Part shown: one piece after another, positions 17,467 to 55,925 of the stretch | How positions within the stretch are numbered: the stretch's first letter is position 1 | Layout of the letters: every line of letters begins with the position of its first letter | Source: a virus | Lineage: Duplodnaviria > Heunggongvirae > Uroviricota > Caudoviricetes | Virus record (IMG/VR): IMGVR_UViG_3300033463_000022 | Location: 22,542 to 86,541 of that record | DNA length: 64,000 nt | Direction: 5' to 3' (one strand) | Made by a program: the position numbers and the translations under genes | The notes under the pieces: model-generated | Database searches by the model: none | What the model saw: the letters and a program-made list of their open reading frames with translations, nothing else | Told to the model about the DNA's origin: nothing

Positions 17467-17565
17467 TACGCAAACTGCGGAGGGGCTTCAATGCCCCTCC
17501 AAAGTAAAAAATTTGCAATAATTAAAAAAATATTTTATAATATATTTGTAAGAATTAAGAAAGGC

Positions 17566-17674: not shown

Positions 17675-17684
17675 GTTTGTATAA

Positions 17685-29892: not shown

Positions 29893-30006
29893 AATAATGC
29901 AGAAACAAATCAGAACAATCCAAGTCGCAGCCCTTGTTGCTTCAATTGCTATTGCGGTAATCTCACGAACGTGTTCAGAAATTCTTAAGGAGGATGAAGA
30001 GTAATA

Positions 30007-39798: not shown

Positions 39799-40485
39799 AT
39801 GGGGTTTATTTATAAAATAAGTTGTCCATATTCTTCAAAAGTCTATATTGGACAAACTATCAATTCAATATAGACGCGATTTCAATAGCATATTAGACGA
39901 GACAGCGGAACAAAACTCGCTTAGGCGTTTCAAAAATATGGAATCGAATCATTTAGCGTTGATTTAGTAGAAGAAGTCGACAACGAACGATTAAATGAGC
40001 GTGAAATTTTTTGGATCAGTCATTATGATTCATATAACCATGGCTATAATATGACTCCTGGCGGACAAACAACGGTTTATGCAGTAGAGCAAACAAAAAA
40101 AGCCGTAGAAAAACGAGACAAAGATACCTTTGAATTATTAGCGGTATATCCTTCTTTAGCCGAAGCAGCTAGAAGTTTAGGACTAGAGGGCGCAGAAAAT
40201 AAACGAAAAAATTTAACAAAATGCTGTCATCGAGAAATCCATGAAATCTATGGTTTCAGATGGAACTTTGTTGGAGAACCGCCTGATACAATAAAAATGG
40301 GCATGGTTAGAAGAATTCCTGTTTATATGTGCGATAAAAACACAAAAGAAATCTTGCAAAAATTTGATAGCGCAAAAGCGGCTAGTATTTATTTGGGTAA
40401 AATAAATGGAAGCCAAATTACTGCCTGTTGCAAGAAGCGTATTCCCAGTGCTTATGGGTATTTTTGGAGATATGTAAATGAATAA
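39799..40485 (+). CDS. GIY-YIG homing endonuclease inserted between the two topoisomerase II subunit genes (228 codons, 3 TAG)
   Basis: MGFIYKISCPYSSKVYIGQT...YWISHYDSYNHGYN plus two repeated IYGFRW/AYGYFWRY helix motifs. Confidence 0.75.
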
Positions 40486-42862
40486 TGAAAAAATTTCTCA
40501 GATAACCGAGATAGACATTCTCGAAGAAGCTAAAGAAAATTTCTTAGTTTATAGTGAGGAGGTCTTGACAGACCGAGCAATTCCGAGCGTTGAAGACGGT
40601 CTTCTATCCTCCCAGCGCAAAATTCTCTGGACGATGGAAGATCCTTTGAAGATGACTTCAAAGGGCAAGACAAAGAAAAGTCAGAGTGTTGTAGGTTCAA
40701 CGCTTTCTACTTCTTACTTCCACGGCGATGCAGCCTGCTATGGCGTTCTCAGTAAGATGGCGCAAACCTATCTAATGCGCTATCCTCTGATCGATGGTCA
40801 AGGTAACCTCGGTACACAGGCAGATAACTCTATGGTATCTGCTCCTCGTTATACAGAAGCCAAGCCTTCCGTCTATACAGACCTCATGATGACTGATTTT
40901 AAGAAGGACGTTGTCCCTCTTAAAGAAACCTATAACAACGAGTACATGGAGCCAGTGGTTCTCCCAGGTCTTTTCCCCAACGCCATCTGCAATGGCCGCC
41001 AAGCCATCGGTATCTCCATGGCGCACAATTCAATGTGCCATAATCTTACCGAAACGTGCAATGCGATTATTAAATATCTTGAGCAGGGCAGCCTTACGAT
41101 TGACGAGCTACTCGAAATCATGCCTGGTCCTGACTTCCCGCTAAGCCAGACAGTAATCAATAAAGATGCAGTGCGTGAAGCGTTCGCTACAGGTAAGTCT
41201 AAAACCTCTCTAAAGCTACGCGGCGACTTTCATGTTGATGGTAACAAAATTATCTTTACTACTATCCCATATCGCACTTATCGTAATAAGATAACTGAAC
41301 AATTCAATAAAAACATTGATGTATTCAGCGAAGTCTTTACAGACTTTAATGACGAGAGCAAACTCGGTCAAAATAAGTTGATCTTCACTCTAAAGCCCGG
41401 CATTGCCCCAGACAGAGCAGTTGCCCTTCTATTTGATCTCACCGACCTGCAAACTTCCGTATCTTACAACATGAACTTCATTGTTAATGGTACACCGAAG
41501 CTTTGCTCAATGATTGACCTTATCAGATATTACTGTGAACATCAAGAGGAAGTCCTCATTAAAGCTACGGAGTTTGATAAGGATAAGGCTGTAAAACGCG
41601 CTCATATCCTCGAAGGGTTGATAGCGGCAGTCGATAAAATTGATGAAGTCATCGCTCTTATTAAGCAGTCTGAATCTCGTGCCGAAGCAGCAGCTGGTCT
41701 TATTAAGCTTCTCTCTATCGACGATATCCAAGCGAAAGCAATTCTTGATATGAAGCTTGGAAACCTTACTCGTATCGACAAGCAAGAGTTAGTGAATGAG
41801 CTAAAGGAAAAGAGAGAGTTTATTGCAAAATGCGACGAGATTTTGAATGATAAGAGCGTGCGGGCCCGCGTGCTCATCGGGCGAGTAACCAAGCTTCGTG
41901 ACGTCTATGGAGACGCTCGCCGCACGAAGCTCGAACAATACAAGGTCGAACCTAAAGCCAAGAAGGAAGTTCCTATTAAGGAGCCTGAGGACGTAGTGGT
42001 TTTGATCTCGAATAATGGCGCCGCTAAGCGGGTGGCCCGCAAGTCCTTCAGAGTTCAAAAGCGTAATACCGCAGGCGTAAAAACCAATGGTGATATCACT
42101 GCTTTCTCTGTCTCAACCAACACTATAGATTCTCTACTTATCTTTACAACAAAAGGTAAGATGTATAGGCTCCTGGTGGAGAAGATCCCCGAAGGTTCTA
42201 ATACTTCAAATGGCACTTTCCTCTCTAACTTAATTGAATTTGACAAAGATGAGTCTCCCATTGCATATGCTACTGTAAATACAGATACAGCTAACAAATA
42301 CTTATTCTTTGCTACGAAAAATGGAGTTATCAAGAAAGTTCCTTTGGAAGAATATCTTAATACCAAGCGTTCCGGGGTACTAGCAATCTCCTTTAAAGAT
42401 GGTGATGAACTAGCGTCAGTAACCTTCATTAATCAAGAGGAAATGATGTTGGTTACAAAGGACGGTATGGTCATTCGATTCCCAACCGCGACAATGCCAA
42501 TCTCTAGTAGAATTGCTCAAGGCGTTAAGGGTATTGGATTGAATGATGGAGACGAGGTATTGGTTGCCCTACCTATTACTAACCCCGAAAATTCTTTGGC
42601 TGTTGTTTCAACAACAGGAAAAGGTAAGAAGACCAAACTCTCTGAATTCACGAGTCAGAACCGTGGAGGTAAGGGTATTGCTTGCTACAAGGAAGAAGTA
42701 GCTGGCGCTGCACTTATCTCAGAAGAGGATAATATTCTAATAAGTGGTAATAAATCTTCTATAGTGATTGCGGCCGGCGATATCCCGCTACTAGGACGCA
42801 CGACTGCTGGTAACATCTTGTTAAAAAACAATGATGCAGTAGTCTCCATTGCTAAGTTCTAA
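40478..42862 (+). CDS. type II DNA topoisomerase subunit A (GyrA/ParC/T4 gp52-like)
   Basis: IPSVEDGLLSSQRKILWTM and AxRYTE active-site Tyr region; C-terminal beta-pinwheel; TAG-free. Confidence 0.85.
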   Translation: MNNEKISQITEIDILEEAKENFLVYSEEVLTDRAIPSVEDGLLSSQRKILWTMEDPLKMTSKGKTKKSQSVVGSTLSTSYFHGDAACYGVLSKMAQTYLMRYPLIDGQGNLGTQADNSMVSAPRYTEAKPSVYTDLMMTDFKKDVVPLKETYNNEYMEPVVLPGLFPNAICNGRQAIGISMAHNSMCHNLTETCNAIIKYLEQGSLTIDELLEIMPGPDFPLSQTVINKDAVREAFATGKSKTSLKLRGDFHVDGNKIIFTTIPYRTYRNKITEQFNKNIDVFSEVFTDFNDESKLGQNKLIFTLKPGIAPDRAVALLFDLTDLQTSVSYNMNFIVNGTPKLCSMIDLIRYYCEHQEEVLIKATEFDKDKAVKRAHILEGLIAAVDKIDEVIALIKQSESRAEAAAGLIKLLSIDDIQAKAILDMKLGNLTRIDKQELVNELKEKREFIAKCDEILNDKSVRARVLIGRVTKLRDVYGDARRTKLEQYKVEPKAKKEVPIKEPEDVVVLISNNGAAKRVARKSFRVQKRNTAGVKTNGDITAFSVSTNTIDSLLIFTTKGKMYRLLVEKIPEGSNTSNGTFLSNLIEFDKDESPIAYATVNTDTANKYLFFATKNGVIKKVPLEEYLNTKRSGVLAISFKDGDELASVTFINQEEMMLVTKDGMVIRFPTATMPISSRIAQGVKGIGLNDGDEVLVALPITNPENSLAVVSTTGKGKKTKLSEFTSQNRGGKGIACYKEEVAGAALISEEDNILISGNKSSIVIAAGDIPLLGRTTAGNILLKNNDAVVSIAKF

Positions 42863-42888
42863 GGAGGGAGAGTAATCTCTCCCTCCAC

Positions 42889-42925
42889 TTGACAGAAATT
42901 TCAATATATTATATTATACTTATAA
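42889..42925 (+). promoter_or_regulatory. sigma70 consensus promoter TTGACA-N17-TATTAT
   Basis: Perfect -35 with 17-nt spacer, upstream of the ligase gene. Confidence 0.6.
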
Positions 42926-42992
42926 AGTAAATATATTATAATATATATTATTATTATTATTAAATCTATATTATTGTGAGGAGTCTCTGTAT

Positions 42993-44159
42993 ATGGGTTT
43001 CGATATAGCTAAAGTAGAGAAACTTTATCCCGGCGCAGGTCCTTTCATGCAGGAAGCGATGCTCATATGGAAGCTTCCCGCAGGAAAAGAAAATAAAATG
43101 AGCGAAGTTTGCTCTAATGGCGAATATTTTGCCGAAGAGAAGATTGACGGTGCGTGGTATCAATTCACCAAAGGAACCGGAGGTCAAGAATATCTCTTCG
43201 GTCGCACTACCTCACGCGTAACAGGTCTTATGACAGAAAAGGGACAGAATGTTCCCCACATTCTTTCTGCTCTTAATTGTTTGCCTAACGGGACAGCTTT
43301 GATCGGTGAGGTATATTTCGATGGAGGCACAGCGAGAGATACTGTTACTATTACGGGATGTCTTCCGCAAGAAGCAGTTCGTCGTCAGAATAATCCAAAA
43401 GGAAAAGGTTTAATTAAATATTACGTTCATGATATTATATTCTATGATGGCGAAAATTTAATGGGAACTGGTGCTTTTGATAGATACGCTATCCTCCAAG
43501 CCATCTGGCAGAAGTATGAGTTATCTAAATTTCCTTTCCTACGTCTTGCTACTATTGTTGAAACAGGTATTGAAGAAGAGGTCTCTCGAATCCTCGCTGC
43601 GGGAGGAGAAGGCATGGTATTAAAGAAGAGAGATGCCGTCTATAGCCCAGGAAAGCGCCCTGCATGGAGTGCTATAAAGTTCAAGCAGATGGATTCAGAG
43701 GATCTCGTTTGTACTCGTACAATCGCACCTACAAAAGAATACACTGGTAAGGAACTTGATACATGGCAGTATTGGGGAAGAATGACATATATCTTCAATG
43801 AAACGACTAAAGAAGGGGTTCCTTGTGAAGTTATTTCCTGCTGTGGACCGACCGACGACAGTGATGAATGGTATCCAATAACTAAACCCTATGCTCTTAA
43901 ATGGCCCTCTGCTATTGGTATCGGCGCATATGACGACAATGGCGAGCTAAAAGAAATTGGTACTATTTCGTCTGGTCTTACTGACGCTGATAAACAAGCA
44001 ATGGCTGATAATCCAGATGCTTTTATTGGCAAAGTTATGCATTGTTACGGCATGTCAAGAGATCGAAAAGAGCAAACATTTAGACACTTCTCCTTTGGTG
44101 GTTGGAGAGATGACAAAGATGCTAAAGATTGCAAACTAAGCGAGATCTTTGGCAGCTAA
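42993..44159 (+). CDS. ATP-dependent DNA ligase
   Basis: Adenylation motif EEKIDGAWYQF (KxDG) and OB domain. Confidence 0.8.
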   Translation: MGFDIAKVEKLYPGAGPFMQEAMLIWKLPAGKENKMSEVCSNGEYFAEEKIDGAWYQFTKGTGGQEYLFGRTTSRVTGLMTEKGQNVPHILSALNCLPNGTALIGEVYFDGGTARDTVTITGCLPQEAVRRQNNPKGKGLIKYYVHDIIFYDGENLMGTGAFDRYAILQAIWQKYELSKFPFLRLATIVETGIEEEVSRILAAGGEGMVLKKRDAVYSPGKRPAWSAIKFKQMDSEDLVCTRTIAPTKEYTGKELDTWQYWGRMTYIFNETTKEGVPCEVISCCGPTDDSDEWYPITKPYALKWPSAIGIGAYDDNGELKEIGTISSGLTDADKQAMADNPDAFIGKVMHCYGMSRDRKEQTFRHFSFGGWRDDKDAKDCKLSEIFGS

Positions 44160-44213
44160 TAGTTGAAAAAACAAAAAAAATATTTTATTATATATTCACA
44201 ATAGTAAAGGAGG

Positions 44214-44432
44214 TTGCCAATGACCCGTACTCAGATAAATAAGCTTGCAAATACCATAGTCTCTTATGAGCAAGCCTTAAAAGATCCTAATAACTCGTAT
44301 GAAAAAAAGAAAGAGGCCGAGTCACAAATCAACCAAATTGCTATGATGCTTTCTAGGTTGCCAAACGGTCTACGAGTAATGCAACAAGTGGATGAAGTAG
44401 TACAATTAAAACTAGAGAGCATAAATATTTAG
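44214..44432 (+). CDS. hypothetical protein (72 aa)
   Basis: RBS AAAGGAGG. Confidence 0.45.
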   Translation: MPMTRTQINKLANTIVSYEQALKDPNNSYEKKKEAESQINQIAMMLSRLPNGLRVMQQVDEVVQLKLESINI

Positions 44433-44449
44433 AAAGAAGGATAATTATT

Positions 44450-44722
44450 ATGGCAGCAATGAAAGAGAATTCCCGCAAGGTACTTACCTATCTACAGGAT
44501 CACAATGGCGAAGATCTTATCGCAGCAGACGTCGCCGAGGCTCTTGGGCTCGAGAAGCGTTCTGTCGACGGTATCTTTACTGCATTCCAGAAGAAGGAAC
44601 TTGGCTATCGCCAGGAGACCGAACGCGAGAATGAAGATGGAACCCATTCTAAGGTTAAGCTCCTAAAGCTCACAGATGCCGGGCTTGCATTCAATCCCGA
44701 CGCGGAAGAGAACAAGGACTAA
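44450..44722 (+). CDS. winged-helix DNA-binding protein (putative transcription regulator)
   Basis: LTYLQDHNGEDLIAADVAEALGLEKRSVDGIFTAFQKKELGYR is a MarR/wHTH-like pattern. Confidence 0.5.
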   Translation: MAAMKENSRKVLTYLQDHNGEDLIAADVAEALGLEKRSVDGIFTAFQKKELGYRQETERENEDGTHSKVKLLKLTDAGLAFNPDAEENKD

Positions 44723-44773
44723 GAAACAATAGCGAGAAGTTGATACTTTTAACTTCTCGCTAATTTTCTACCC

Positions 44774-45733
44774 ATGTTTTACGGTTTAATTATCGAAGGC
44801 ATCTGTCTACTTGCTCTTTTTATTCTGTACTTGCGGGCGCGAGGTCAAGCGCGGCATACAGTCTAGCGTAACGACGCCATAGAGCAAGAAAACTAGCAAT
44901 TGGCTAATACAAATGACTAGCTACGTATTGAGTAGATGGCTCTTAATGAGTAGCGCAATGCTTCAGAGAAGCACTTAGAGTCATTAAAAACTTAGGTGTA
45001 GGCATAGGGCAACATTTTATAGAGCTACACTTTAACCACCCAATAGCTTGAAAAAGACGCCAAAGAGCGGGCTGAGCAGAGCTATTAGGCGGCGGCCGCA
45101 AGCCTAGCACAAAAGTATGGTTAGCAAGAAGCTGAATTAGAAACAACTTATTAGCAACACTCATAGTAGTTATTATCCCGTATTAAAGAAGAAGAAAATA
45201 AGCTAAAAGATTTAGAAGATAAATAGCTTGCTTATATTAAAGCAAAACAACGAGAAGAAGAAATTGCTGCTTAGCGAGATTATTATCGACTAGTTCTTGA
45301 AGATATAGATTGTGAAGAGATAAAGCTTCTTCGTAATTTATAGGTACAATTCTCAAGGAAAGAAGCCATCGATAAGCTTATATGGGAGAGTTACTACAAA
45401 GCAGCTTACGACCTCTTGATGACGCATTTGTTCTAGAGTTCTGATAAATTATGCGGCATCTATAAAATCACTAATCTTGAAAACGGTTAGGCGTATATTG
45501 GGCAGTCTGTTGATATAAAAGAGCGGTTTAGATAGCATATCAAATCTGCTCTAACAAGCGGCCCTACAACCAATAAGCTATATCAATAGATGAAGAAATA
45601 CTAGCCCGAAAATTTCACTTTTGAAATACTGGAATCGGTTTCGCGAGATAAATTGAATGAACGAGAATAGTACTGGATAGACTTTTATAAAACAAAAGAC
45701 TATGGAATGAATGGGACAAAAGGTGGGTCATGA
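44774..45733 (+). CDS. TAG-saturated ORF: TM helix plus Gln-rich coiled coil fused to a C-terminal GIY-YIG nuclease domain (319 codons, about 25 in-frame TAG)
   Basis: Frame free of TAA/TGA for 319 codons in AT-rich DNA while carrying about 25 TAG; C-terminal LCGIYKITNLENG-Q-AYIGQSVDIKERFR-Q-HIK...NEREQYWIDFYKT is a GIY-YIG core. Confidence 0.55.
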
Positions 45734-46110
45734 ATACTGATTGGTTAAAAACTAAATATACATGCAGCCTCTGTGGTCGACAAACAGACGTGACAGGAAG
45801 TGTCATCCCCACAGAGTATCAAGGCTATATACTATGTATAGCTTGCGGGCAGATGCTCTATACTTGCGGCACTTGCAAACATAATGCCTGCGGGGTCGAC
45901 AATGCTCTTCATGGCGGCCAATGCCCAGTTAGTCCAGTCGTACAGGTTGTAACGCAAGACGGTTTCATGACAATGGAGCGGCCTGAAATCAATCCGCGAT
46001 TAGTAGATATTTACTGCGAGGATTGCATATGCCGTGACGATAAACGATGCGTACATTTTACAGTACATTCATGTGATAAATATGAGATAATGGAGAAGAA
46101 ATATAAATGA
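45730..46110 (+). CDS. Cys-rich hypothetical protein (126 aa)
   Basis: Multiple CxxC pairs; overlapping start ATGA. Confidence 0.45.
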   Translation: MNTDWLKTKYTCSLCGRQTDVTGSVIPTEYQGYILCIACGQMLYTCGTCKHNACGVDNALHGGQCPVSPVVQVVTQDGFMTMERPEINPRLVDIYCEDCICRDDKRCVHFTVHSCDKYEIMEKKYK

Positions 46111-46772
46111 GTGAACGTATAATTGGAACAGCGAGTTATCGCTGTGTAAATAACGCTGTTGTCTATGACTTGGAAGAAAGTTTGATCGCTAGTGGGTATC
46201 CAATGAGGACGACAGCTCCGGACGGCACAATGACAGATAGGGATATAGCAAGAGGTAGTACGTTGTCTGCCGCAGCGAATGGTATTAACCACGCGCATGA
46301 CCAGTTTCTTTCTGGTATCCGAGTGAACTTCGATCTTACTTTTAGTAATAAGGCTTGGATTGAAGCGGAACGTTATAGGTTCCTAACTTTTGTAAGTTCT
46401 CAGTCTACGATGCATCGCATTACCAAGTTTGATATTAAGAACCAGTGTAATAAGTACGTGCGGCCGGAGGTTATCTCGCTACTAGAGAACTTGGTTCACG
46501 AGTATCATATCATGACCAGTGAACGCGATGAAGCTCCTGGTCTTGAAAAAGCAGAATGGGACAAGAAGCTTGCTGAGAAATACCTCGAAATTCTCTATAA
46601 TACCCCCTCTGGCTTTGAACTCACGGCTCGTATGTCTACCAATTATCGCTGTCTCAAGAATATCTATAACCAGCGTAAAGATCATCGCCTCCCCGAATGG
46701 AGAGAATTTTGCAGCTGGATAGAGACTTTGCCATATGCGCATGAATTAATTCTATGTGATAGCAAGACCTAA
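46107..46772 (+). CDS. ThyX-like flavin-dependent thymidylate synthase homologue with variant RYR motif
   Basis: ERYRFLTFVSSQS parallels ThyX RHRxxSxxxxS; TNYRCLKNIYNQRKDHRLPEWREF parallels the NARSLMNFLNLRAD region. Confidence 0.5.
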   Translation: MSERIIGTASYRCVNNAVVYDLEESLIASGYPMRTTAPDGTMTDRDIARGSTLSAAANGINHAHDQFLSGIRVNFDLTFSNKAWIEAERYRFLTFVSSQSTMHRITKFDIKNQCNKYVRPEVISLLENLVHEYHIMTSERDEAPGLEKAEWDKKLAEKYLEILYNTPSGFELTARMSTNYRCLKNIYNQRKDHRLPEWREFCSWIETLPYAHELILCDSKT

Positions 46773-46781
46773 TGCGCTTTA

Positions 46782-46822
46782 TTGACTTATTATTCATTTT
46801 ATTGTATAATAGATATATAGAA
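46782..46822 (+). promoter_or_regulatory. sigma70-type promoter TTGACT-N17-TATAAT plus AGATATATAGAATG
   Basis: Near-consensus -35/-10 with 17-nt spacer. Confidence 0.6.
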
Positions 46823-46852
46823 TGAAAGAAAAGGATAAAAGGATAAAAAGTT

Positions 46853-47218
46853 ATGAACAAAGCTTATGTATTGTTTGAAGGAATCGTAACTAACTATGGT
46901 ATTTCCCGCGATGATGAAATGGTTAAAGAGCTCTATGAGCTTCTTAACGCGCAGTCTGACCCCAGTAAGCCAGAAGTAACTGAAGCTGGTCTCGCAATTC
47001 TTGAATATATGCAGAATTGCGAAACTTCCAATCTCAAAGCCAAGGATATCGCTGAAGGCATGGGAGTTGCTTCTCGTAAGGTGTCTGGTTCTATTCGTAA
47101 GCTCGTAACAGACCAGTTTGTGGAAAAGGTAGGGCAAAATCCCGTTATCTACTCTCTTACAAGCAAAGGAAAAGAATTTGATACCAAGACTTATAAAGAA
47201 CAACTGCAAGACAAATAA
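46853..47218 (+). CDS. hypothetical wHTH-like protein (121 aa)
   Basis: ORF after a consensus promoter. Confidence 0.45.
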   Translation: MNKAYVLFEGIVTNYGISRDDEMVKELYELLNAQSDPSKPEVTEAGLAILEYMQNCETSNLKAKDIAEGMGVASRKVSGSIRKLVTDQFVEKVGQNPVIYSLTSKGKEFDTKTYKEQLQDK

Positions 47219-47242
47219 GAACAATTAAAGGAGAATTAAGTA

Positions 47243-48199: not shown

Positions 48200-48233
48200 G
48201 GGGAAACCCTTAGAAGTCTATAGGAGGTAACAT

Positions 48234-49217: not shown

Positions 49218-49299
49218 ATACTCTACAAAGGGAGGGCTTGCCAGCACGAGCCTTCCCTTGACTTTTTTTTTATTATACGTTATAATATAAAAGGAAGGA

Positions 49300-49833
49300 G
49301 TGAACAGCTTGGCAAAACAACCGAAAGTTAAATGTCCCATATGCGGGGAACAATTCTATAGGGAAGATACTCCTTTTATCAAAATAAAGACACGTTATTA
49401 CCATACTTCTTGCTACGAAGCAGTAGAGGCTGCGAAGACAGAGGAAGAAAAAGAGCATGAGCGTTTGATTGAATATATCAAACAATTATTTAATGTAAAT
49501 ATATTAACTGTAAAGATAAATAAACAAATAAAAGACTATATAGAAAAAGGTTACTCTTACAAAGGAATTAGAAAAACTTTACAATATTGGTTTGAAATTA
49601 AGGGTAATTCTATTGAGAAAGCGAATGGTGGCATTGGAATAGTACCGTACACCTATGAGCAGGCGCTTACATATTGGAGAGGAATTTGGGAAGCTCAGCA
49701 GCGCAATCAACAGACAGGTGTAGCCGAGATTACTATCCCAGTTAGAGAAATCCGTATCGCTCCTCCAGAAAGGAAGCCCATGAAAATCACGCGCAAATTA
49801 TTTACCTTTTTAGAAGAGGATGGTGAGGATTAG
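49300..49833 (+). CDS. Zn-finger protein, possible helicase loader (177 aa)
   Basis: CPICG...YHTSCYE; immediately upstream of dnaB-like gene. Confidence 0.4.
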   Translation: MNSLAKQPKVKCPICGEQFYREDTPFIKIKTRYYHTSCYEAVEAAKTEEEKEHERLIEYIKQLFNVNILTVKINKQIKDYIEKGYSYKGIRKTLQYWFEIKGNSIEKANGGIGIVPYTYEQALTYWRGIWEAQQRNQQTGVAEITIPVREIRIAPPERKPMKITRKLFTFLEEDGED

Positions 49834-51374
49834 TGAATAGTTATAATGATCCTGCCGCAATCACTCAGGTTATAGGCTGTGTATTCAACAACCCCAGCTT
49901 ATTGGATGAAACAGATAAATACACTATTTCTGATGATGACTTCCCCGAAGAGTTTCATAGAATTGTCTTTGGATCTATATATAATATTCATGCTACCCAA
50001 AGCGAAGTTACAATAGATGCCATAATTGATTATCTTGCCAATAGGCCAAAGTATGAAGCAGTATTCAATGTAAATAAAGGTATTGAATATCTTGCAGAAG
50101 CAAGTAGGTATGCTAAAGAAAATACCTTTAATTATTACTACGGTCGTATGAAGAAGTTTACTCTACTTCGTATGTATAATAAGTACGGTGTTGACGTTTC
50201 TTGGTTGTACTCTCCCTTGACTCTTGATACTCAACTTCGTCAGCAACAGGAAGATTGGTTAGATGCTACAAGCCTTGTAGATATAGCTAATAAAGTAGAT
50301 AGCAAAATTGAAGAGATAAAGTCAAAATATGTTGACGATGAAATAGATGAAGGTATGCAGGCAGGCGAAGGTATTGATAATTTGCTTGAAGAACTGCAAA
50401 AACATCCCGAAGTTGGTATTCCTCTTTATGGTCCGCTTATAAACACTGTAACAAGAGGAGCAAGATTAAGAAAGTTTTACTTGCGGTCCGCGGCCACTGG
50501 CGTCGGTAAGACAAGGTCTATGGTCGCTGATGCCTGGAACTTTGCTGCTACAGAGATATATAGCGAGCAGTTCGGAATGTGGATTAAAAACGGGCCGTCA
50601 CAGCCTACTCTCTTCATCGTAACAGAGCAGGATATGGGAGAGTTCCAGACCATGTCTCTTGCTTTTCTATCTGGAGTTGATGAAGGTCATATCCTTGATA
50701 ATAGATATGAAGAAGGCGAATGGGATAGAATCCTTAAAGCCAAAGAAATTATCAAGAACAGTTGCTTGTGGGTTGAGCAGTTGCCAGATTTCTCTATTCA
50801 AGACGTCGAAGGAAAGATAAAGAAACATATAAGAGATCATGATGTAAAGTATGTATTCTTTGATTATCTGCACACTTCGATGAAAATTCTTGAAGAAGTT
50901 AGCCGACGTTCCGGTGGGGTTAAGTTGAGAGAAGATAATGTCCTGTTTATGCTTTCAACCCACTTGAAAGACTTGGCTAACCAATATGGAGTTTTTATTA
51001 TGTCAGCAACACAATTGAATGCCGACTATCAAGATAGTGAAACGCCAGACCAAAACCTGCTGCGCGGAGCGAAGAGTATCGCAGATAGAATTGACGTTGG
51101 TATGATTCTATTGAGCGTGACAGATTCTGACTTGAAGAAGATAGAACCTATCATGGAGCTTCATCCAGAGTTCTCTTCTCCAATACTTAAAATTTCTGTT
51201 TATAAAAACAGAAGAGGCGCATATAGAGGATGCTATTTATTCTGTAGAGGTAATCTTGGAACTTGCAGAATAGAACCGATGTTTATGACCGATTGGCGAC
51301 ATCAGCTTATGTCGATTGAAGATATTAAAATATTTGTAGAAGATGACCTTCCTCCATGGGAAGATCAAAAATAA
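49833..51374 (+). CDS. dnaB: DnaB-family replicative helicase
   Basis: Walker A AATGVGKTRSMVADAW plus N-terminal DnaB domain; TAG-free. Confidence 0.8.
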   Translation: MNSYNDPAAITQVIGCVFNNPSLLDETDKYTISDDDFPEEFHRIVFGSIYNIHATQSEVTIDAIIDYLANRPKYEAVFNVNKGIEYLAEASRYAKENTFNYYYGRMKKFTLLRMYNKYGVDVSWLYSPLTLDTQLRQQQEDWLDATSLVDIANKVDSKIEEIKSKYVDDEIDEGMQAGEGIDNLLEELQKHPEVGIPLYGPLINTVTRGARLRKFYLRSAATGVGKTRSMVADAWNFAATEIYSEQFGMWIKNGPSQPTLFIVTEQDMGEFQTMSLAFLSGVDEGHILDNRYEEGEWDRILKAKEIIKNSCLWVEQLPDFSIQDVEGKIKKHIRDHDVKYVFFDYLHTSMKILEEVSRRSGGVKLREDNVLFMLSTHLKDLANQYGVFIMSATQLNADYQDSETPDQNLLRGAKSIADRIDVGMILLSVTDSDLKKIEPIMELHPEFSSPILKISVYKNRRGAYRGCYLFCRGNLGTCRIEPMFMTDWRHQLMSIEDIKIFVEDDLPPWEDQK

Positions 51375-51607
51375 AAAGGAGATTTTTTATTATGAAGCAC
51401 GCAGGAATTGAATATCAGATGACTAAGAAAATGTTTGATAGTCTTCTAAAAACGCGTTCAGAATCTGAAAAGAGTATGAACCCCTACGCCTTTGTTATGA
51501 AGGTTATTAATGAACAATTCGGTATCAAGGGGCAAGTAACCCACGTAACATTTTACGAATAATACCGCTAAGTAGCGGTCATTATTGTATTAAGAAAGGT
51601 AGATATA

Positions 51608-52708
51608 ATGAGTCGCTACTTTGATAAAGATAAGCTAAAAGAAGCTCTTGAGCTTGGGCAGATCTACGATCTGCTTGAGCTCTGGGGCGGTGAGCCAGAA
51701 GAATTCGAAGGCGGACTAGTTTCTAGAACCATTTGCCACAACGTTCCAGGCGAGGGATCACGAAAACTGTATTATTATGAAAATACTCGCCTATTTCATT
51801 GCTTTACTGGTTGTATTGAACCTTCATTTGATATTTTTGAATTAGCTGCAAAAGTTGCAAAGATACAAAAAGGGGCAACTTGGGAACTTTATGACGCGAT
51901 GTGCTTTATCGCTGACTACTTTGGCTTCGAAGGAGAAGAGCAAGAGGAAAAGAAGATAGAGCTTGCGGATTGGAAGGTTTTTAGTCGCCATAGGTATGGT
52001 GAAGTAAAGCTACCAAGTAAGGTAACTCTTCCAGAGTATAATCCAGTGATTCTTACTCGTTTTTCTTATCCTAGAATATCAAGCTGGGAAAAAGAAGGTA
52101 TAGCGCCAGAAGTTGTGAAACGAAACGTAATAGGCTATTATGCAGGAGGCGAGCAGATCACTATTCCTCATTTTGACGAAGATGGTAGGCTTATAGGAAT
52201 TAGAGGGAGATTTTTGTCAGAGGAAAGCGCTGATAGATACGGAAAATATCGTCCTCTATATGTCAATAAAACACTCTATAATCATCCACTAAGCATGAAT
52301 TTATACAATCTCAACCACTCGCGTCCGCAGATAGCCAAGAGCGGAATAGCTTTAGTTTTTGAAAGTGAAAAGGCATGTCTACAATATCAGAGTTATTATG
52401 GCGGAGATAATGATATCTCCGTAGCTGTGTGCGGAAGCTCGGTTAGTAGCTACCAAATGCATCTTTTAAAGGAAAGTGGAGCGAGAGAAATAGTGTATTG
52501 CTTTGACCGTGACTTTGAAGAGATAGGCGATGACAAATTCAATAGATTAAAAACAAAGATAACTCACTTATATAATAAGTATAGCAATTCTTTAAAGATT
52601 TCTATTGTATTTGATAAGAATATGATTACTGGACTTCATTCTTCTCCTATTGATGAAGGCAAAGAAAAATTTGAGCAACTATTAAATGAAAGGATTATGT
52701 CACTATGA
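51608..52708 (+). CDS. dnaG: DnaG-type DNA primase
   Basis: Zn-ribbon CHNVPGEGS...FHCFTGC and Toprim LVFESEKACLQYQ...VYCFDRD. Confidence 0.75.
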   Translation: MSRYFDKDKLKEALELGQIYDLLELWGGEPEEFEGGLVSRTICHNVPGEGSRKLYYYENTRLFHCFTGCIEPSFDIFELAAKVAKIQKGATWELYDAMCFIADYFGFEGEEQEEKKIELADWKVFSRHRYGEVKLPSKVTLPEYNPVILTRFSYPRISSWEKEGIAPEVVKRNVIGYYAGGEQITIPHFDEDGRLIGIRGRFLSEESADRYGKYRPLYVNKTLYNHPLSMNLYNLNHSRPQIAKSGIALVFESEKACLQYQSYYGGDNDISVAVCGSSVSSYQMHLLKESGAREIVYCFDRDFEEIGDDKFNRLKTKITHLYNKYSNSLKISIVFDKNMITGLHSSPIDEGKEKFEQLLNERIMSL

Positions 52709-52971
52709 ATCTTGTACCTGCAATTAAAGAGCTTGAATCAGAAATTAGAAAAATGCGTTATGAGTTCGAGCGGAAGGTTAAACCCTATGAAGAGTCTATT
52801 GCTCAACTTAGAAAGTTAAATGATGCTTGTGAATACTGTAATGGTGCGGGTAAAGTATTGCGTTCTAGAGCCTGCGCCGAAGATGATCCCCCAGATGCCA
52901 ATGACCCTAGAGACTGGCTTGTATGTGATCATTGCCGTGGTACGGGAAAATGCAAGAAAAAGGAGAGCTGA
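52705..52971 (+). CDS. hypothetical CxxC protein (88 aa)
   Basis: Overlapping start; CEYCNG...CDHCRGTGKC. Confidence 0.4.
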   Translation: MNLVPAIKELESEIRKMRYEFERKVKPYEESIAQLRKLNDACEYCNGAGKVLRSRACAEDDPPDANDPRDWLVCDHCRGTGKCKKKES

Positions 52972-53010
52972 TATAATGTAGTTTAATAATAAGTAAAGGA
53001 TTTGATTTAA

Positions 53011-54282
53011 TTGGACTATACACTTATAAACCCCATAAACCCCAAAATATCCCCTATTGAATAGGTGCTTGTTAATCGAGGGTTTAAACTAGAAGATATC
53101 CCTCATTATCTTCATGTAACGAAAGAGGACAATTTATCTCCGCGACTTTTGAATAATATTGATAGAGCTGTCTCTCTTTTAGGTAAACATATAATGGATG
53201 ATAATTCTCATATCCATATATAGGTAGATAGTGACTGCGATGGTTATACCAGTGCAGCTTGTTTGCTAGATTATATTTACCTAGCTTTTCCAACCGCTAT
53301 ATCAAAGTTCTCCTATTCCTTCCATGATGATAAAACTCACGGCATTGATACAAAAAACATACCAAGTGACACCACATTAGTAATAGCACCTGATGCTTCT
53401 AGTAATGAATATGATACTCATAAAGCTCTTTCAGAAAAAGGCATTGATGTATTGGTAATAGACCACCACCAAGCCGATAGGATCTCTGAGTACGCCTGTG
53501 TTGTGAATAATCAGCTATGTGACTACCCCAATAAGGCATTAAGTGGCGTAGGTGTGGTATATAAAGTTTGTCAGCGCTTCGACGAACTTATGAATACTGA
53601 CTATGCAAACCAACTAGTAGATTTAGTCATGCTGGGGCTCACGGGAGATATGATGGACTTGCGATCTCTTGAGACTAAATATCTCGTAAATCAAGGTATC
53701 GCGCATCTTAGAAACCCGTTTATTAAGGGCATGGCGGAGAAGAATGAACATTCGCTCGGTTCGCAAATTACACCCATTGGTGTTGCTTTCTATATTGTAC
53801 CATATGTTAATGCTGTAACAAGAGTAGGGACACAAGAAGAGAAGTAGCTGCTTTTTAAAAGTATGCTAAACTGGGAAGCTTTTAATATTGTACCCTCTAC
53901 TAAGAAAGGCTGTAAAGGGCAGACAGAAACTATCGTAACACAAGCTGTTCGTACTTGCCAAAATATCAAGAACCGTCAAACAAAAGTACAGGAAGCCGCG
54001 GTAGAAGATCTTGAAGAGCTGATTGCGGCCGCCGGGTTACTGGAGCATAAAGTCTTAATCTTCCAGCTCGATGACTCATTCTCTATTACGCCAGAACTTC
54101 GAGGTCTGATAGCGAATAAGTTCATGGCTAAATATTGTAGACCAGTACTTATGTTGTCACTCACAGAATACGAAGGTAAGCCCGCTTTAATGGGGTCTGC
54201 ACGAGGTTATGAGAAATCAAAACTCTTGGATTTCCGCAAATTCTGTAGGGAATCTGGTCTGGTGTTCTTGGCTGAGGGTTAG
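53011..54282 (+). CDS. RecJ-like DHH/DHHA1 single-strand exonuclease (423 codons, TTG start, 3 TAG)
   Basis: DHH motifs HIHI-Q-VDSDCDGYTSAA and VLVIDHHQ; frame joins three listed ORF fragments across TAGs at 53062, 53221 and 53848; RBS AAAGGA. Confidence 0.65.
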
Positions 54283-54477
54283 CTTTAGTGTGGCCCTAAA
54301 ACTTTTTTCCGTCTTATCAACGGGGTCGCTAATTAAATGGCCAATTCTGGACATTCTTGATTAGTTGGCTAACGAGAAAACCTAAATATAATAGAGGATA
54401 TTATACATGGTAATCTCGTGGGAAGAATTATTCTTTATATGACGTCCTCTTAATTTAGAATTAAGGAGACATAAAGT

Positions 54478-55326
54478 ATGTTAAAAAGCATCTATAAAAT
54501 TACCAATACCCTAAATAACAAATGCTACATCGGTCAAACAGATGACGTAAAACGTAGATTTACTGAGCATAAAGCTCTAGGGTATGGTCGAGAAAATTCC
54601 ATTTTATATCGCGCTATCAAAAAATACGGTCTTGAGAATTTTACATTTGAAGTAATTGAAGAGAATATTGAAAATTATAACGAAAGAGAAAAATATTGGA
54701 TTGCATATTATGATTCATATTAGAGTGGCTACAATATGACACCAGGTGGAGAAGAGCCTCCAGTGAAATATGGAGAAAATCATCCTCTTGCAACGCACTC
54801 AAAAGCCGAATCCGAGGAAGTAAAAAATCTGTTACTGGCAACTCAAATGACCGTAAAAGAAATCGCTCAAAAGATGGCATATAACGTTTCTTCTATCATA
54901 AGAATTAATAATGGAGCACTTTGGCATGATGATACACTCGATTATCCGCTTAGAAAAGAATTAAGTAAAAAATTCAACGAAGACCGTGCATTAAGAATAA
55001 TTGATGACTTGCTAAATACAAGTATGACCCAGAGAGAAATTGCCGTTAAATACGGAGTAGGACGCTCTACAGTAACAGCCATAAACAATGGTTAGAATAA
55101 TAGGCAAGATGATTTAGAGTATCCAATTCGAGATAAAGATAGAGATAAATAGTCAAAACATATTTTTATGATAGATAAAGACACTGACGAAATTCTTAAA
55201 GATTTTGTTAATGCCAAAGAAGCGGCTCGCTATCTTGGCGATGCCGGTATGGCAACTGCATTACAAACATGCGCAAGGGGGAATTCAAGAACTTCCCATG
55301 GATATAAATGGAGATATAAAGAATGA
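54478..55326 (+). CDS. GIY-YIG homing endonuclease (282 codons, 3 TAG)
   Basis: MLKSIYKITNTLNNKCYIGQTDD...KYWIAYYDSY-Q-SGYNMTPGG; C-terminal NUMOD-like repeats. Confidence 0.75.
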
Positions 55327-55613
55327 TTAACCTGTATCGACTATCTCGGGTGAGACCGAGAGTACTGGCACTATTGATACGTGCTGGGAAAAGGAGTTCC
55401 CTTCGGGGTAAGAAATAGTCAGCGCTGCTGGAAACAGTAGAATAATCGCACCCTAATGCTTTCGGTTTTGGAATCTACCTGGAAAACATAGAGAAGTTCA
55501 TCGCTTACTCTGATGAAAAACTCAAAGATATAGAGTTCTCTCCTAGCTACAGAGTAGACTTTATTTTTCAAGGTTCTCAAGTTGACCCGCAGACCGTTCT
55601 TGAAGTTGGCACT

Positions 55614-55925
55614 ATGAAAACTCTATGGGGACAGAATATCGACGAGGCATATGTCGCAGTTGAAAGGCTAAATGTTACTAAAGAAATGGTAACTCTTATG
55701 TCCCGTGATAAAAGCCCAACACTTAAAATTTCTCTACCTAATGGAGTAGCTTGTATCAAATTCAAGTCAAGCGAAGAAGAGTATGAATCTTTGCTGACTG
55801 AAACAGGTTGCGTAACACTTACAATTATTGGTAAGTGTGAAGTAAATAGATACTTTAACTCTGTCACACCACAGATTATTATTGAAGACTACGAAATTGT
55901 TGATCGAATGGATTATTACTTCTGA
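55614..55925 (+). CDS. OB-fold-like protein, possibly the RecJ C-terminal domain separated by the homing-endonuclease insertion
   Basis: Open frame extends upstream to 55446; beta-rich GCVTLTIIGKCEVNRYFNSVTPQIIIEDYEIV pattern. Confidence 0.35.
   Translation: MKTLWGQNIDEAYVAVERLNVTKEMVTLMSRDKSPTLKISLPNGVACIKFKSSEEEYESLLTETGCVTLTIIGKCEVNRYFNSVTPQIIIEDYEIVDRMDYYF

What the first reader, a model, noticed from the sequence alone, without database searches (positions are those of the whole stretch)
39799..55925. Homing-endonuclease load: one GIY-YIG splits the topo II subunit genes and another may split RecJ from its OB domain
At least five GIY-YIG and two HNH genes occur in 64 kb. The one at 39799 sits exactly between the large and medium topo II subunit genes (as mobile elements do in T4-like topo loci), with the next gene's ATG overlapping its stop. 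The one at 54478 lies between the RecJ DHH/DHHA1 gene and a downstream OB-fold-like ORF (frame open from 55446) that could be the detached RecJ C-terminus.
Basis: inference. Interest (0 to 1): 0.55.

Follow-up and report, generated by a model that had tools for sequence, protein, structure and literature searches.

The report
Group I intron in phage RecJ
The 'split' RecJ gene of this gut-type phage is one gene interrupted by a self-splicing group I intron that carries its own homing endonuclease, and a second endonuclease gene is a free-standing insertion between the gyrase B and A genes: a clear but ordinary case of selfish DNA in a phage that reads the TAG stop codon as glutamine.

Summary
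Every in-frame 'stop' in these genes is TAG, and a tRNA-CUA lies at 17685..17758.

Five GIY-YIG genes and two HNH genes are confirmed.

**RecJ.** The gene is not split into two genes.
- A 1169-nt insertion (54280..55448) sits between Gly423 and His424 of the DHHA1 motif.
- It starts after a U and ends in G.
- It has P1/IGS, P3-P9 and P7.1/P7.2, supported by covariation.
- The endonuclease ORF lies in the P6 loop.
- The spliced 581-aa protein aligns end to end with SPbeta YorK and with more than 100 uninterrupted relatives.
- Other phages carry the same break with ORF-less introns of 232-242 nt. Rfam's group I model matches one of them (E 7.7e-10).

**Topoisomerase genes.** They are gyrase B/A-like, not T4-like. 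The 39799 endonuclease is a free-standing insertion in a 12-25 nt spacer. Six relatives lack it. More distant phages carry homologues at the same spot.

**Verdict.** This is a new member of a known kind, of low to moderate interest. Splicing and cleavage are inferred, not shown.

The parts
37894..39786 (+). gyrB-like type IIA topoisomerase subunit B gene (630 aa, no TAG codons)
   Evidence: Pfam DNA_gyraseB, Toprim and DNA_gyraseB_C. NCBIfam DNA gyrase subunit B over the full length, below the cutoff.
39799..40485 (+). Free-standing GIY-YIG homing endonuclease gene (228 aa), with in-frame TAG at 39871, 39886 and 39922. It uses the GGAGG that serves gyrA in relatives. Its stop overlaps the gyrA ATG (ATGAATAA).
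   Evidence: Pfam GIY-YIG + NUMOD1. TIGR01453 74 bits against a cutoff of 56. Absent from the 12-25 nt gyrB-gyrA spacer of L126-L131 and of L049. Homologues of 54-69% identity sit at the same spot in L132, L135 and L136/L137.
40478..42862 (+). gyrA-like type IIA topoisomerase subunit A gene (794 aa, no TAG codons)
   Evidence: Pfam DNA_topoisoIV plus five DNA_gyraseA_C stretches. NCBIfam gyrA residues 9-792 against profile 2-796/798.
53011..54279 (+). RecJ-like (YorK-type) exonuclease, exon 1 (423 codons, TTG start, TAG=Gln at 53062, 53221 and 53845). It ends ...GAG GGT.
   Evidence: Pfam DHH 68-209 and the DHHA1 start. Alignment A1. The DNA alignment to intron-less relative L004 breaks exactly after 54279.
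54280..55448 (+). Group I intron, 1169 nt, with the endonuclease ORF in the P6 loop. It begins after U54279 and ends with G55448.
   Evidence: A clean 1169-nt insertion relative to L004. The same site is occupied by ORF-less introns of 232-242 nt or ORF-carrying introns of 945-1173 nt in ten other phage contigs. Structure covariation. RF00028 matches ORF-less homologue L029. A family profile built without the window hits only 54274-54438 and 55323-55455.
54280..54433 (+). 5' half of the ribozyme. P1 pairs exon 54275-79 (AGGGU) with IGS 54293-97 (GCCCU), with a U.G at the splice site. P10 partner GUG lies within 54288-54292. P3 5' strand 54300-06. Extra hairpin A 54309-23. Extra hairpin B 54325-69. 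P4 54372-76 pairs with 54415-19. P5 54380-82 pairs with 54409-11. P6 54420-21. P6a 54426-33.
   Evidence: Sequence. Pair counts on alignment A2. nhmmer E 1.9e-22.
54444..54470 (+). Hairpin that pairs the endonuclease's Shine-Dalgarno sequence (AAGGAG, 54463-68)
   Evidence: Minimum-free-energy fold of 54436-54485. [quoted passage not shown] The function here is inferred.
54478..55326 (+). Intron-encoded GIY-YIG homing endonuclease (282 aa), with TAG=Gln at 54721, 55093 and 55150
   Evidence: Pfam GIY-YIG + HTH. TIGR01453 'group I intron endonuclease' 92 bits against a cutoff of 56. The closest relatives are the endonucleases inside the RecJ-site introns of L087 (52% identity, full length) and L021 (56%).
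55321..55448 (+). 3' half of the ribozyme. P6a' 55321-28. P6' 55331-32. P7 55339-44 pairs with 55415-20. P7.1 55345-60. P7.2 55365-87, whose loop 55375-79 pairs with the hairpin A loop 54315-19. P3' 55392-98. P8 55399-407 (UUCG loop). P9 55425-40 (GAAA loop). Terminal G at 55448.
   Evidence: nhmmer E 9.6e-25. 71-73% identity to the same element in Enterococcus phages EF1, EF5 and VRE9_3.
55449..55925 (+). RecJ-like exonuclease, exon 2 (158 codons + TGA). It starts CAC CCT AAT GCT (HPNAFG) and encodes the end of DHHA1 plus the RecJ OB domain.
   Evidence: The Pfam DHHA1 match 350-449 spans the junction, and RecJ_OB covers 460-570. TIGR00644 matches in one stretch, residues 15-571. There is no ATG, GTG or TTG in frame before 55614.
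17685..17758 (+). Suppressor tRNA with anticodon CUA. It is needed to translate the TAG codons of both endonucleases and of RecJ exon 1.
   Evidence: ARAGORN. Rfam tRNA 40.8 bits.
4396..5322 (+). GIY-YIG endonuclease gene inside the tRNA array (308 aa, 4 TAG)
18133..18795 (+). GIY-YIG endonuclease gene next to the second tRNA cluster (220 aa, 3 TAG)
44774..45733 (+). Protein of 319 aa with a transmembrane segment, a coiled coil and a C-terminal GIY-YIG domain. It has 24 TAG codons and is conserved in place in relatives, so it is probably a resident gene rather than a homing element.
21321..21884 (+). HNH_3 + NUMOD4 endonuclease gene (187 aa, 0 TAG)
29536..29988 (+). HNH endonuclease-domain gene (150 aa, 1 TAG)

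Best explanation
The window comes from a phage of about 145 kb with an SPbeta-like replication module. It reads TAG as glutamine through its own tRNA-CUA.

**RecJ locus.** The RecJ-like (YorK-type) exonuclease gene is a single gene interrupted at 54280..55448 by a mobile group I intron.
- Inferred: after transcription the intron folds, with P1 formed by exon AGGGU and guide GCCCU, and a P3-P9 core with P7.1/P7.2.
- Inferred: a guanosine attacks after U54279, the freed exon attacks after G55448, and the joined mRNA encodes a 581-aa protein with an intact ...LAEG|HPNAFG... DHHA1 motif and OB domain.
- Shown: the intron's P6 loop holds a GIY-YIG (I-TevI-type) endonuclease gene.
- Inferred: this endonuclease cuts intron-less RecJ alleles in co-infecting relatives, and repair copies the intron in (homing).

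**Gyrase locus.** The gene at 39799..40485 is a free-standing endonuclease of the same superfamily. It is inserted in the short spacer between the gyrB-like and gyrA-like genes and spreads by intron-less homing. It belongs to a lineage found at that same spacer in other phages.

**Timing.** Both endonuclease genes, like the other three GIY-YIG genes, contain in-frame TAG codons. The neighbouring replication genes contain none. The likely consequence is that the nucleases are made only once the suppressor tRNA is active. In the intron, a hairpin over the ribosome-binding site would add to this delay.

Shown here: the anatomy, the homology, the covariation and the presence/absence pattern. Inferred: splicing, cleavage and timing.
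For: **TAG reassignment**
- All in-frame stops are TAG, and a tRNA-CUA is present.
- TAG positions align to CAG or CAA Gln codons in relatives, including a standard-code contig, and to Gln in SPbeta YorK.

**One RecJ gene**
- The Pfam DHHA1 match spans the junction, and RecJ_OB lies in exon 2.
- TIGR00644 recJ matches in one stretch, residues 15-571 against profile 4-546/546.
- tblastn gives a single piece at 99% coverage to YorK and to other phage RecJ-like genes.
- More than 100 uninterrupted homologues of 580-582 aa exist, with G423 and H424 invariant.
- Close relative L004 lacks exactly 54280..55448.

**Group I intron**
- Exon 1 ends in U and the intron ends in G.
- Ten other contigs are broken at the same G|H codon pair. 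Five of them carry ORF-less introns of 232-242 nt.
- RF00028 matches L029 over the full model: 42.4 bits, E 7.7e-10.
- On alignment A2, 91.5% of cells are paired against 78.7% in shuffles (0/500). 27 pairs change on both sides against 17 (0/500). Slid controls give 30-45%.
- A profile built without the window hits only the two flanks of the ORF, and the hits are contiguous in profile coordinates (E 1.9e-22 and 9.6e-25).
- The endonuclease scores above the TIGR01453 cutoff. Its closest relatives sit in introns at the same site.

**Free-standing endonuclease**
- Relatives L126-L131 and L049 have gyrB directly followed by gyrA.
- Homologues occupy the same spacer in L132, L135, L136 and L137.

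**TAG bias**
- There are 0 TAG against 162 Gln codons in nine replication genes, and 3-24 TAG in each GIY-YIG gene.
- The same idea is published for Agate phages (bioRxiv 10.1101/2021.08.26.457843).
Against: - Rfam's group I model does not hit the window itself. This holds for the whole window, the region, and either half.
- The hit on the ORF-less homologue is below the gathering score (42.4 against 50).
- The 5' half departs from the textbook layout. There is no P2, and two hairpins lie between P3 and P4.
- P4 and P7 are invariant in the alignment, so they carry no covariation evidence.
- P7 was fixed by the search pattern used to collect family members.
- No RNA data show splicing.
- No assay shows that either endonuclease is active.
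- RecJ exon 1 itself has three TAG codons, so the split between 'early genes without TAG' and 'nucleases with TAG' is not clean.
Confidence: 0.88

Rival explanations
1. Genes in pieces. A free-standing endonuclease inserted into RecJ and split it into a DHH/DHHA1 protein and a separate OB-domain protein that re-associate. This would resemble NrdA split by mobE in Aeromonas phage Aeh1, or T4 gene 39/60 split by mobA.
For: An endonuclease gene lies between two RecJ-homologous reading frames. Such split genes exist in T4-like phages (PMC2988022).
Against: - The endonuclease is flanked by 198 nt and 122 nt that form the two halves of a conserved, covarying ribozyme family.
- The same break occurs with no endonuclease at all in five contigs.
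- The break separates Gly from His inside the invariant DHHA1 motif.
- The downstream frame has no start codon until 55614, 55 codons in.
- The upstream frame runs on into the intron to a TAA at 54334-36.
Confidence: 0.03
2. Dead intron and pseudogene. The insertion is a decayed intron that no longer splices, so this phage has lost RecJ function.
For: Rfam does not recognise the window's intron. RecJ-type genes may be dispensable for phages.
Against: - All core helices and the U and G splice-site nucleotides are intact, and they fit the family consensus.
- Both exons are open and 75% identical to an intact relative. Every one of the 113 columns invariant across the ten aligned homologues necessarily keeps its residue in the window protein.
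- The endonuclease ORF is intact under TAG=Gln.
Confidence: 0.05
3. The standard code applies. The in-frame TAGs are real stops, so the endonucleases and RecJ are fragmented pseudogenes.
For: In table 11 the ORFs are broken into pieces of 81, 119, 144 and 194 aa and similar.
Against: - Only TAG interrupts these frames, never TAA or TGA.
- A tRNA-CUA is encoded.
- TAG also interrupts structural genes.
- TAG columns align to Gln codons in relatives.
- A related phage, Phass-1, is filed in the 'Caudoviricetes code 15 clade'.
Confidence: 0.02
4. The 39799 gene is no longer selfish. It has been retained at the gyrB-gyrA junction for a host-beneficial role, for example excluding competing phages or regulating gyrA translation.
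For: Homologues persist at the same spacer in several diverged phages. Its 3' end supplies a GGAG 8 nt before the gyrA ATG and overlaps that ATG.
Against: Its patchy presence among relatives with 66-68% amino-acid identity is the usual signature of an active or recently active homing element. Nothing tested here points to another function.
Confidence: 0.1

Closest known systems
T4 td intron with I-TevI, and other phage group IA introns carrying GIY-YIG endonucleases
   Same: - A self-splicing group I intron in a conserved phage DNA-metabolism gene.
- Insertion at codons for catalytically critical residues.
- P7.1 and P7.2 between P7 and P3'.
- A GIY-YIG endonuclease ORF looped out of P6.
- A ribosome-binding site buried in a hairpin.
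- From my memory of the td sequence, the same CGACUAUC ... AUAGUC P7 strands.
   Different: - The host gene is RecJ/YorK. It is not among the host genes (DNA polymerases, ribonucleotide reductases, terminases) that the 2014 review PMC3984707 names for phages.
- There is no P2.
- Two extra hairpins lie between P3 and P4. The first forms a covarying loop-loop pairing with L7.2.
- There is a single short P9 instead of the extended P9.0-9.2 quoted for IA2 (PMC4227781).
- The endonuclease carries reassigned TAG codons.
Free-standing T4 Seg/Mob endonucleases (intron-less homing)
   Same: A GIY-YIG gene sits between conserved genes, is patchily present among relatives, and overlaps its neighbour's start or stop codons.
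   Different: - It lies between two naturally separate genes, gyrB and gyrA. It does not create a new split as mobA does in T4 gene 39/60.
- The target enzyme is gyrase-like with a GyrA C-terminal domain, not the T4 gp39/gp52/gp60 enzyme.
Recoded intron endonuclease of Agate phages (Borges et al., bioRxiv 10.1101/2021.08.26.457843)
   Same: A group I intron endonuclease sits inside a replication gene of a stop-codon-recoded gut phage, and the reassigned stop is enriched in the endonuclease. The proposed effect is that the nuclease is made only late.
   Different: - There the reassigned codon is TGA=Trp. Here it is TAG=Gln.
- Here the pattern extends to all five GIY-YIG genes, including the free-standing ones.
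- Here the host gene's exon 1 also has three TAGs.
Bacillus phage SPbeta YorK (RecJ-like ssDNA exonuclease) and the yorI-yorJ-yorK-yorL module
   Same: The gene order helicase, primase-like, RecJ-like, PolIII-alpha-like is the same. The spliced protein aligns over 99% of its length at 35% identity.
   Different: SPbeta yorK is uninterrupted. The window has extra genes (lysozyme-like, PIF1-like helicase) between RecJ and the polymerase.

Membership tests
Group I intron (Rfam RF00028) | The 5' splice site follows a U that forms a U.G pair in P1 with an internal guide sequence just inside the intron | tested here: met
   Exon AGGGU (54275-79) pairs with GCCCU (54293-97), and U54279 pairs with G54293. 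The U.G and three G-C pairs are invariant in 10/10 family members.
Group I intron (Rfam RF00028) | The intron ends with a G (omega-G) | tested here: met
   G55448. The boundary is fixed independently by alignment to intron-less L004. All ten homologous introns end in G before a CAY codon.
Group I intron (Rfam RF00028) | Conserved core P3-P9 with the P3/P7 pseudoknot and the P/Q/R/S sequence elements | tested here: met
   The manual structure on alignment A2 is supported by covariation in P3, P5, P7.1, P7.2, P8 and P9. P4 and P7 are invariant and match the Rfam consensus strands in the alignment of homologue L029.
Group I intron (Rfam RF00028) | A score at or above Rfam's gathering threshold (50 bits) | tested here: not met
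   There is no hit on the window. The ORF-less homologue L029 scores 42.4 bits, E 7.7e-10, over the full model. A loop of about 900 nt that holds the 849-nt ORF cannot be spanned by the model.
Group I intron (Rfam RF00028) | Guanosine-dependent self-splicing | not testable with these tools
   This needs in vitro transcription and splicing, or RNA-seq.
Subgroup IA2 | Two hairpins, P7.1 and P7.2, in domain 7 (PMC4227781) | tested here: met
   P7.1 is 55345-60 and P7.2 is 55365-87. In P7.2, 7/7 pairs show compensatory changes.
Subgroup IA2 | Extended domain 9 (P9.0, P9.1, P9.2), and P2 between P1 and P3 | tested here: not met
   There is only one 6-bp P9 hairpin, followed by 8 nt before the terminal G. 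P3 follows P1 after 2-3 nt. Two hairpins lie between P3 and P4 instead. The subclass is left unassigned.
GIY-YIG homing endonuclease (I-TevI type, TIGR01453) | An N-terminal GIY-YIG catalytic domain plus a C-terminal DNA-binding module | tested here: met
   - 54478: PF01541 + HTH, and TIGR01453 at 92.1 bits against a cutoff of 56.05.
- 39799: PF01541 + NUMOD1, and TIGR01453 at 74 bits.
GIY-YIG homing endonuclease (I-TevI type, TIGR01453) | Presence/absence polymorphism at a fixed site among related genomes | tested here: met
   - RecJ site: empty in L004, L071, L091 and L096; occupied in ten contigs.
- gyrB-gyrA spacer: empty in L126-L131 and L049; occupied in the window, L132, L135, L136 and L137.
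GIY-YIG homing endonuclease (I-TevI type, TIGR01453) | Site-specific cleavage of the empty allele, and homing | not testable with these tools
   This needs a cleavage assay and phage crosses.
RecJ (TIGR00644) / SPbeta YorK-type exonuclease | DHH, DHHA1 (GGGH-type motif) and OB domains in one polypeptide | tested here: met
   This holds for the spliced product only. DHH covers 68-209, DHHA1 covers 350-449 across the junction, and RecJ_OB covers 460-570. The match is one stretch to profile 4-546/546, but 261.6 bits is below the equivalog cutoff of 396.9. It is therefore RecJ-like, not a RecJ equivalog.
Genes-in-pieces split by a free-standing endonuclease (Aeh1 nrdA/mobE type) | No intron RNA around the endonuclease, and a downstream fragment with its own translation start | tested here: not met
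   A ribozyme core flanks the ORF. There is no in-frame start between 55446 and 55613.
T4-type topoisomerase II (gp39/gp52/gp60) | A GyrA-like subunit lacking the C-terminal beta-pinwheel domain, and a GyrB-like part split into two subunits | tested here: not met
   The 794-aa subunit has five GyrA_C repeats and matches gyrA profiles end to end. The 630-aa subunit covers the whole of GyrB. The definition of the T4 enzyme comes from my own knowledge and from PMC2988022.
Genetic code 15 (TAG = Gln) phage | In-frame TAG in conserved genes aligning to Gln, and a tRNA-CUA | tested here: met

The most novel reading that the evidence does not exclude
The RecJ intron may represent a widespread and structurally distinct subfamily of phage group IA introns that, as far as I could check, has not been described.
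- It lacks P2 and has two extra hairpins between P3 and P4.
- It has a covarying kissing-loop between the first extra hairpin and L7.2. Four compensatory variants were seen: AUCA/UGAU, ACCA/UGGU, GCCA/UGGC and ACCG/CGGU.
- It has colonised at least three catalytic-motif sites of the SPbeta-type replication module: RecJ G|H, GyrB KGL|GEM, and the primase.
- In recoded phages its endonucleases would be time-gated by the reassigned TAG codon.
Probability: 0.3. Interest if true: 0.45.

Novelty: new member of a known kind. Interest (0 to 1): 0.3.

Why it matters
**Practical value**
- Standard gene callers will report this locus as five or six fragments. These are three RecJ pieces, two or three endonuclease pieces and an orphan 'OB-fold' ORF.
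- The correct model is one 581-aa RecJ-like gene plus one intron endonuclease. It needs both code 15 and splicing.
- The same RecJ site (GGT|CAY in the DHHA1 motif) is interrupted in at least ten other viral contigs. The same intron family also interrupts gyrB and a primase gene, so the correction applies to other genomes too.

**Biological value**
- The case adds a new host gene and homing site to the list of phage group I introns.
- It gives a second example, this time with TAG, of intron and free-standing endonucleases loaded with a reassigned stop codon.
- It does not change how these elements are thought to work.

Tried and rejected
- **Rfam on the window.** I searched the whole window at gathering and at E-value thresholds, the region 54100-55700, and each intron half alone. 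None gave a group I hit. A search of four whole relative loci also gave nothing. Only a narrow search on ORF-less L029 succeeded.
- **blastn of the intron 5' half against phage genomes.** It gave only chance-level matches of 30 nt.
- **A td-like fold for the 5' half.** I tried P3 = UAUCAA/UUGAUA and P4 = CGGGG/CUCGUG. I rejected it because the flanking stems (hairpin A and P7.2) show two-sided covariation. The UAUCA/UGAUA pairing is therefore a loop-loop contact.
- **The P3 assignment made by the Rfam model on L029.** It pairs the hairpin B 3' strand with the P7.2 5' strand. I rejected it for the same reason and because it does not hold in other members.
- **An intein.** Excluded, because the intervening frame has a TAA at 54334-36.
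- **'Collaborative homing'.** The idea was that the free-standing 39799 endonuclease targets the gyrB intron site about 200 bp upstream. Only the catalytic domains are similar to gyrB-intron endonucleases (about 43% identity over 86 aa). The closest full-length relatives are all spacer-resident. The idea is not supported, though not excluded.
- **Other introns of this family in the window.** None were found.
- **A covariance model.** I did not build one, because the nhmmer profile test was sufficient.

Full report
**1. The reading depends on TAG reassignment**

In table 11 the region is a mosaic of short ORFs in the same frame. Every interrupting codon is TAG:
- 39871, 39886 and 39922 in the first endonuclease;
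- 53062, 53221 and 53845 in RecJ;
- 54721, 55093 and 55150 in the second endonuclease.

With TAG read as sense, the whole window resolves into long genes on the + strand. A tRNA with anticodon CUA lies at 17685..17758.

The TAG columns align to glutamine:
- RecJ codon 18 aligns to CAG in relative L004.
- Endonuclease codon 42 aligns to CAA in L135 and in the standard-code contig L136.
- RecJ codon 71 (alignment position 72) aligns to Gln of Bacillus phage SPbeta YorK.

One relative in GenBank, Phass-1, is filed under 'Caudoviricetes code 15 clade'. So the window is from a TAG=Gln phage.

**2. The count of endonuclease genes**

Pfam finds a GIY-YIG domain in five proteins: 4396..5322, 18133..18795, 39799..40485, 44774..45733 and 54478..55326. 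It finds HNH domains in two: 21321..21884 and 29536..29988. All five GIY-YIG proteins score above the cutoff of NCBIfam TIGR01453.

The 44774 protein is different from the rest. It has a transmembrane segment and a long coiled coil before a C-terminal GIY-YIG domain. It has 24 TAG codons. It is present at the same position in relatives. I therefore count it as a resident gene, not a homing element.

**3. RecJ is one gene with an intron**

The upstream frame ends ...FLAEG at 54279. The downstream frame, open from 55446, reads (S)HPNAFGFGI from 55449. Joined, they give LAEG|HPNAFG, the DHHA1 'GHxxAxG' motif.

The evidence that the joined 581-aa protein is a single unit:
- It has DHH (68-209), a DHHA1 match that runs across the junction (350-449), and RecJ_OB (460-570).
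- It matches the RecJ profile TIGR00644 in a single stretch from end to end, below the equivalog cutoff.
- It aligns as one tblastn piece over 99% of its length to SPbeta YorK and to similar genes in Geobacillus, Enterococcus and other phages.
- More than a hundred uninterrupted homologues of 580-582 aa exist, up to 75% identical. Gly423 and His424 are invariant.

The closest relative (L004, a 146.5-kb contig) has the same neighbourhood, and its RecJ is followed directly by the lysozyme-like gene. A DNA alignment places a clean 1169-nt insertion at 54280..55448 in the window, with no gap in the relative.

**4. The insertion is a group I intron**

The basic anatomy:
- It follows a U (54279) and ends in G (55448).
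- Exon AGGGU pairs with GCCCU at 54293-97 to form P1, with a U.G at the splice site.
- GUG just upstream of that guide can pair with the first exon 2 bases, CAC, to form P10.
- The 849-nt endonuclease ORF leaves 198 nt upstream and 122 nt downstream.

Related elements found elsewhere:
- The 3' part is 71-73% identical to a segment in Enterococcus phages EF1, EF5 and VRE9_3. In EF5 that segment follows a GIY-YIG gene which interrupts the primase-like gene next to an intact RecJ.
- A pattern built from the P7 strands found more than 120 viral contigs, most of them sharing the same layout.
- Ten of those contigs hold RecJ homologues broken at exactly the same Gly|His codon pair (GGT|CAY).
- Five of the ten have introns of only 232-242 nt with no ORF. 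The other five have introns of 945-1173 nt with the ORF in the same loop.

Tests of the structure:
- Rfam's group I model matches the ORF-less L029 intron over the full model, at 42.4 bits and E 7.7e-10. The gathering score is 50.
- On a ten-sequence alignment with a hand-drawn structure, 91.5% of cells pair against 78.7% in shuffles (0/500).
- 27 pairs change on both sides against 17 in shuffles (0/500).
- Structures slid by one to three columns pair at only 30-45%.
- P7.2 (7/7 pairs), P9 (6/6), hairpin A (3/4) and P3 (3/7) carry the compensatory changes. P4 and P7 are invariant.
- A profile built from the other nine sequences hits the window only at 54274-54438 and 55323-55455. The two hits are contiguous in profile coordinates (E 1.9e-22 and 9.6e-25).

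In every ORF-carrying member, a long stem (P6a) brings the ORF flanks together. In the window, P6a is 54426-33 paired with 55321-28.

Rfam does not hit the window itself. That is expected for a core interrupted by a loop of about 900 nt that holds the 849-nt ORF.

**5. Fine structure and subgroup**

P7.1 and P7.2 between P7 and P3' place the intron in subgroup IA (PMC4227781). The 5' half is not the textbook IA2 layout:
- P3 follows P1 directly.
- Two covarying hairpins lie between P3 and P4.
- P9 is a single hairpin.

The loop of the first extra hairpin pairs with the loop of P7.2. Across 30 family members this contact shows four compensatory variants. I could not compare the fold with specialised intron databases, so I leave the subclass open.

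**6. The intron endonuclease**

It is an I-TevI-type protein (TIGR01453, 92 bits). Its nearest relatives are the endonucleases in the RecJ-site introns of L087 and L021, at 52-56% identity. So the nuclease and the site travel together.

Its Shine-Dalgarno sequence (54463-68) is paired in a hairpin. The same arrangement is known for the T4 intron endonucleases (PMC2988022).

**7. The topoisomerase locus**

The two genes match gyrase B and gyrase A profiles over their full length. The A subunit has the C-terminal beta-pinwheel. This is therefore not the T4 three-subunit enzyme.

In six relatives at 66-68% protein identity, gyrB is followed after 12-25 nt by gyrA. In the window a 687-nt GIY-YIG gene fills that spacer:
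- It starts 13 nt after the gyrB stop and uses the GGAGG there.
- It ends in ATGAATAA, which overlaps the gyrA start.
- A GGAG within its last codons lies 8 nt before that ATG.
- There is no room for ribozyme sequence, so the gene is free-standing.

Full-length homologues (54-69% identity) occupy the same spacer in more distant phages. In L136 and L137 the locus carries three elements at once: an intron with its endonuclease in gyrB, the spacer endonuclease, and a LAGLIDADG intein in gyrA. In L049 an intron of the same family as the RecJ intron interrupts gyrB at the KGL|GEM motif.

**8. TAG and timing**

Nine replication genes in the window have no TAG among 162 Gln codons. These are gyrB, gyrA, the ligase, the YorF-like gene, the AAA_24 gene, DnaB, the primase-like gene, the PIF1-like helicase and PolIII alpha. 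Each GIY-YIG gene has 3-24 TAG codons.

Borges et al. reported the same bias for a group I intron endonuclease in TGA-recoded Agate phages. They proposed that it delays nuclease synthesis. That reading fits here but is not tested, and RecJ exon 1 also has three TAGs.

**9. Verdict**

What is present is a mobile group I intron in a RecJ-like gene and a free-standing homing endonuclease in the gyrB-gyrA spacer of a code-15 phage. Both are well-known kinds of element. The RecJ insertion site and the details of the intron fold may be new.

Splicing and cleavage remain inferences.

Noticed in passing
window 17561..17677 (+): A sub-threshold match to the Y RNA-like family YrlA (RF02553: 34.8 bits against a gathering score of 69, E 7.5e-4, full model). 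It lies immediately 5' of the suppressor tRNA-CUA. Nearby are a DUF2828/DUF7788 protein (18823..20343) and a cREC_REC domain protein (21908..22213). This may be an RNA-repair or Ro-like module.
   Followed up: partly
window 44774..45733 (+): A 319-aa protein with a transmembrane segment, a coiled coil and a C-terminal GIY-YIG domain. It has 24 in-frame TAG codons, which is 67% of its TAG+Gln codons. It is conserved at the same place in relatives (L004 1694-2683). Its function is unknown, and the TAG density is extreme.
   Followed up: partly
window 4283..4368 (+): An 86-nt tRNA with a long variable arm, which ARAGORN nevertheless assigns the anticodon UUG (Gln). That is an odd combination in a phage that also reassigns TAG to Gln.
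   Followed up: no
window 1213..2139 and 16081..17466 (+): A FliD-like gene (Pfam FliD_N and FliD_C) and a gene whose translation looks flagellin-like by eye. The second was not scanned against any protein family library. Both lie among phage structural and tRNA genes.
   Followed up: partly
L136 / L137 1049..8279 (relatives): One gyrase locus carries three selfish elements. gyrB is interrupted at about residue 570 by an intron with a GIY-YIG gene. A free-standing GIY-YIG gene sits in the gyrB-gyrA spacer. A LAGLIDADG intein lies inside gyrA (1195 aa).
   Followed up: partly
L005 1436..3557 (Enterococcus phage EF5); L001 (VRE9_3): The primase-like gene next to RecJ is annotated as two 'hypothetical proteins' with a GIY-YIG gene between them. 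The segment after that gene is 71-73% identical to the 3' core of the window's intron. This is probably an unannotated group I intron in cultured Enterococcus phages.
   Followed up: partly
L049 and many loci ending ...ACG|TAGGCGAAATGG: The same intron family has a second frequent insertion site, in gyrB at the conserved KGL|GEM motif. The window's gyrB (KGLGEL, around 39600) is uninterrupted.
   Followed up: partly
window 54315..54319 with 55375..55379: A loop-loop pairing (UAUCA/UGAUA) between an extra hairpin after P3 and the P7.2 loop. It covaries across the family as ACCA/UGGU, GCCA/UGGC and ACCG/CGGU. I could not establish whether this contact is described for IA introns.
   Followed up: partly
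window 49300..49836 (+): The penultimate codon of this YorH-like gene is TAG, followed directly by TGA. The gene overlaps the DnaB start at 49833. Depending on the state of the code, the protein ends one residue earlier or later.
   Followed up: no
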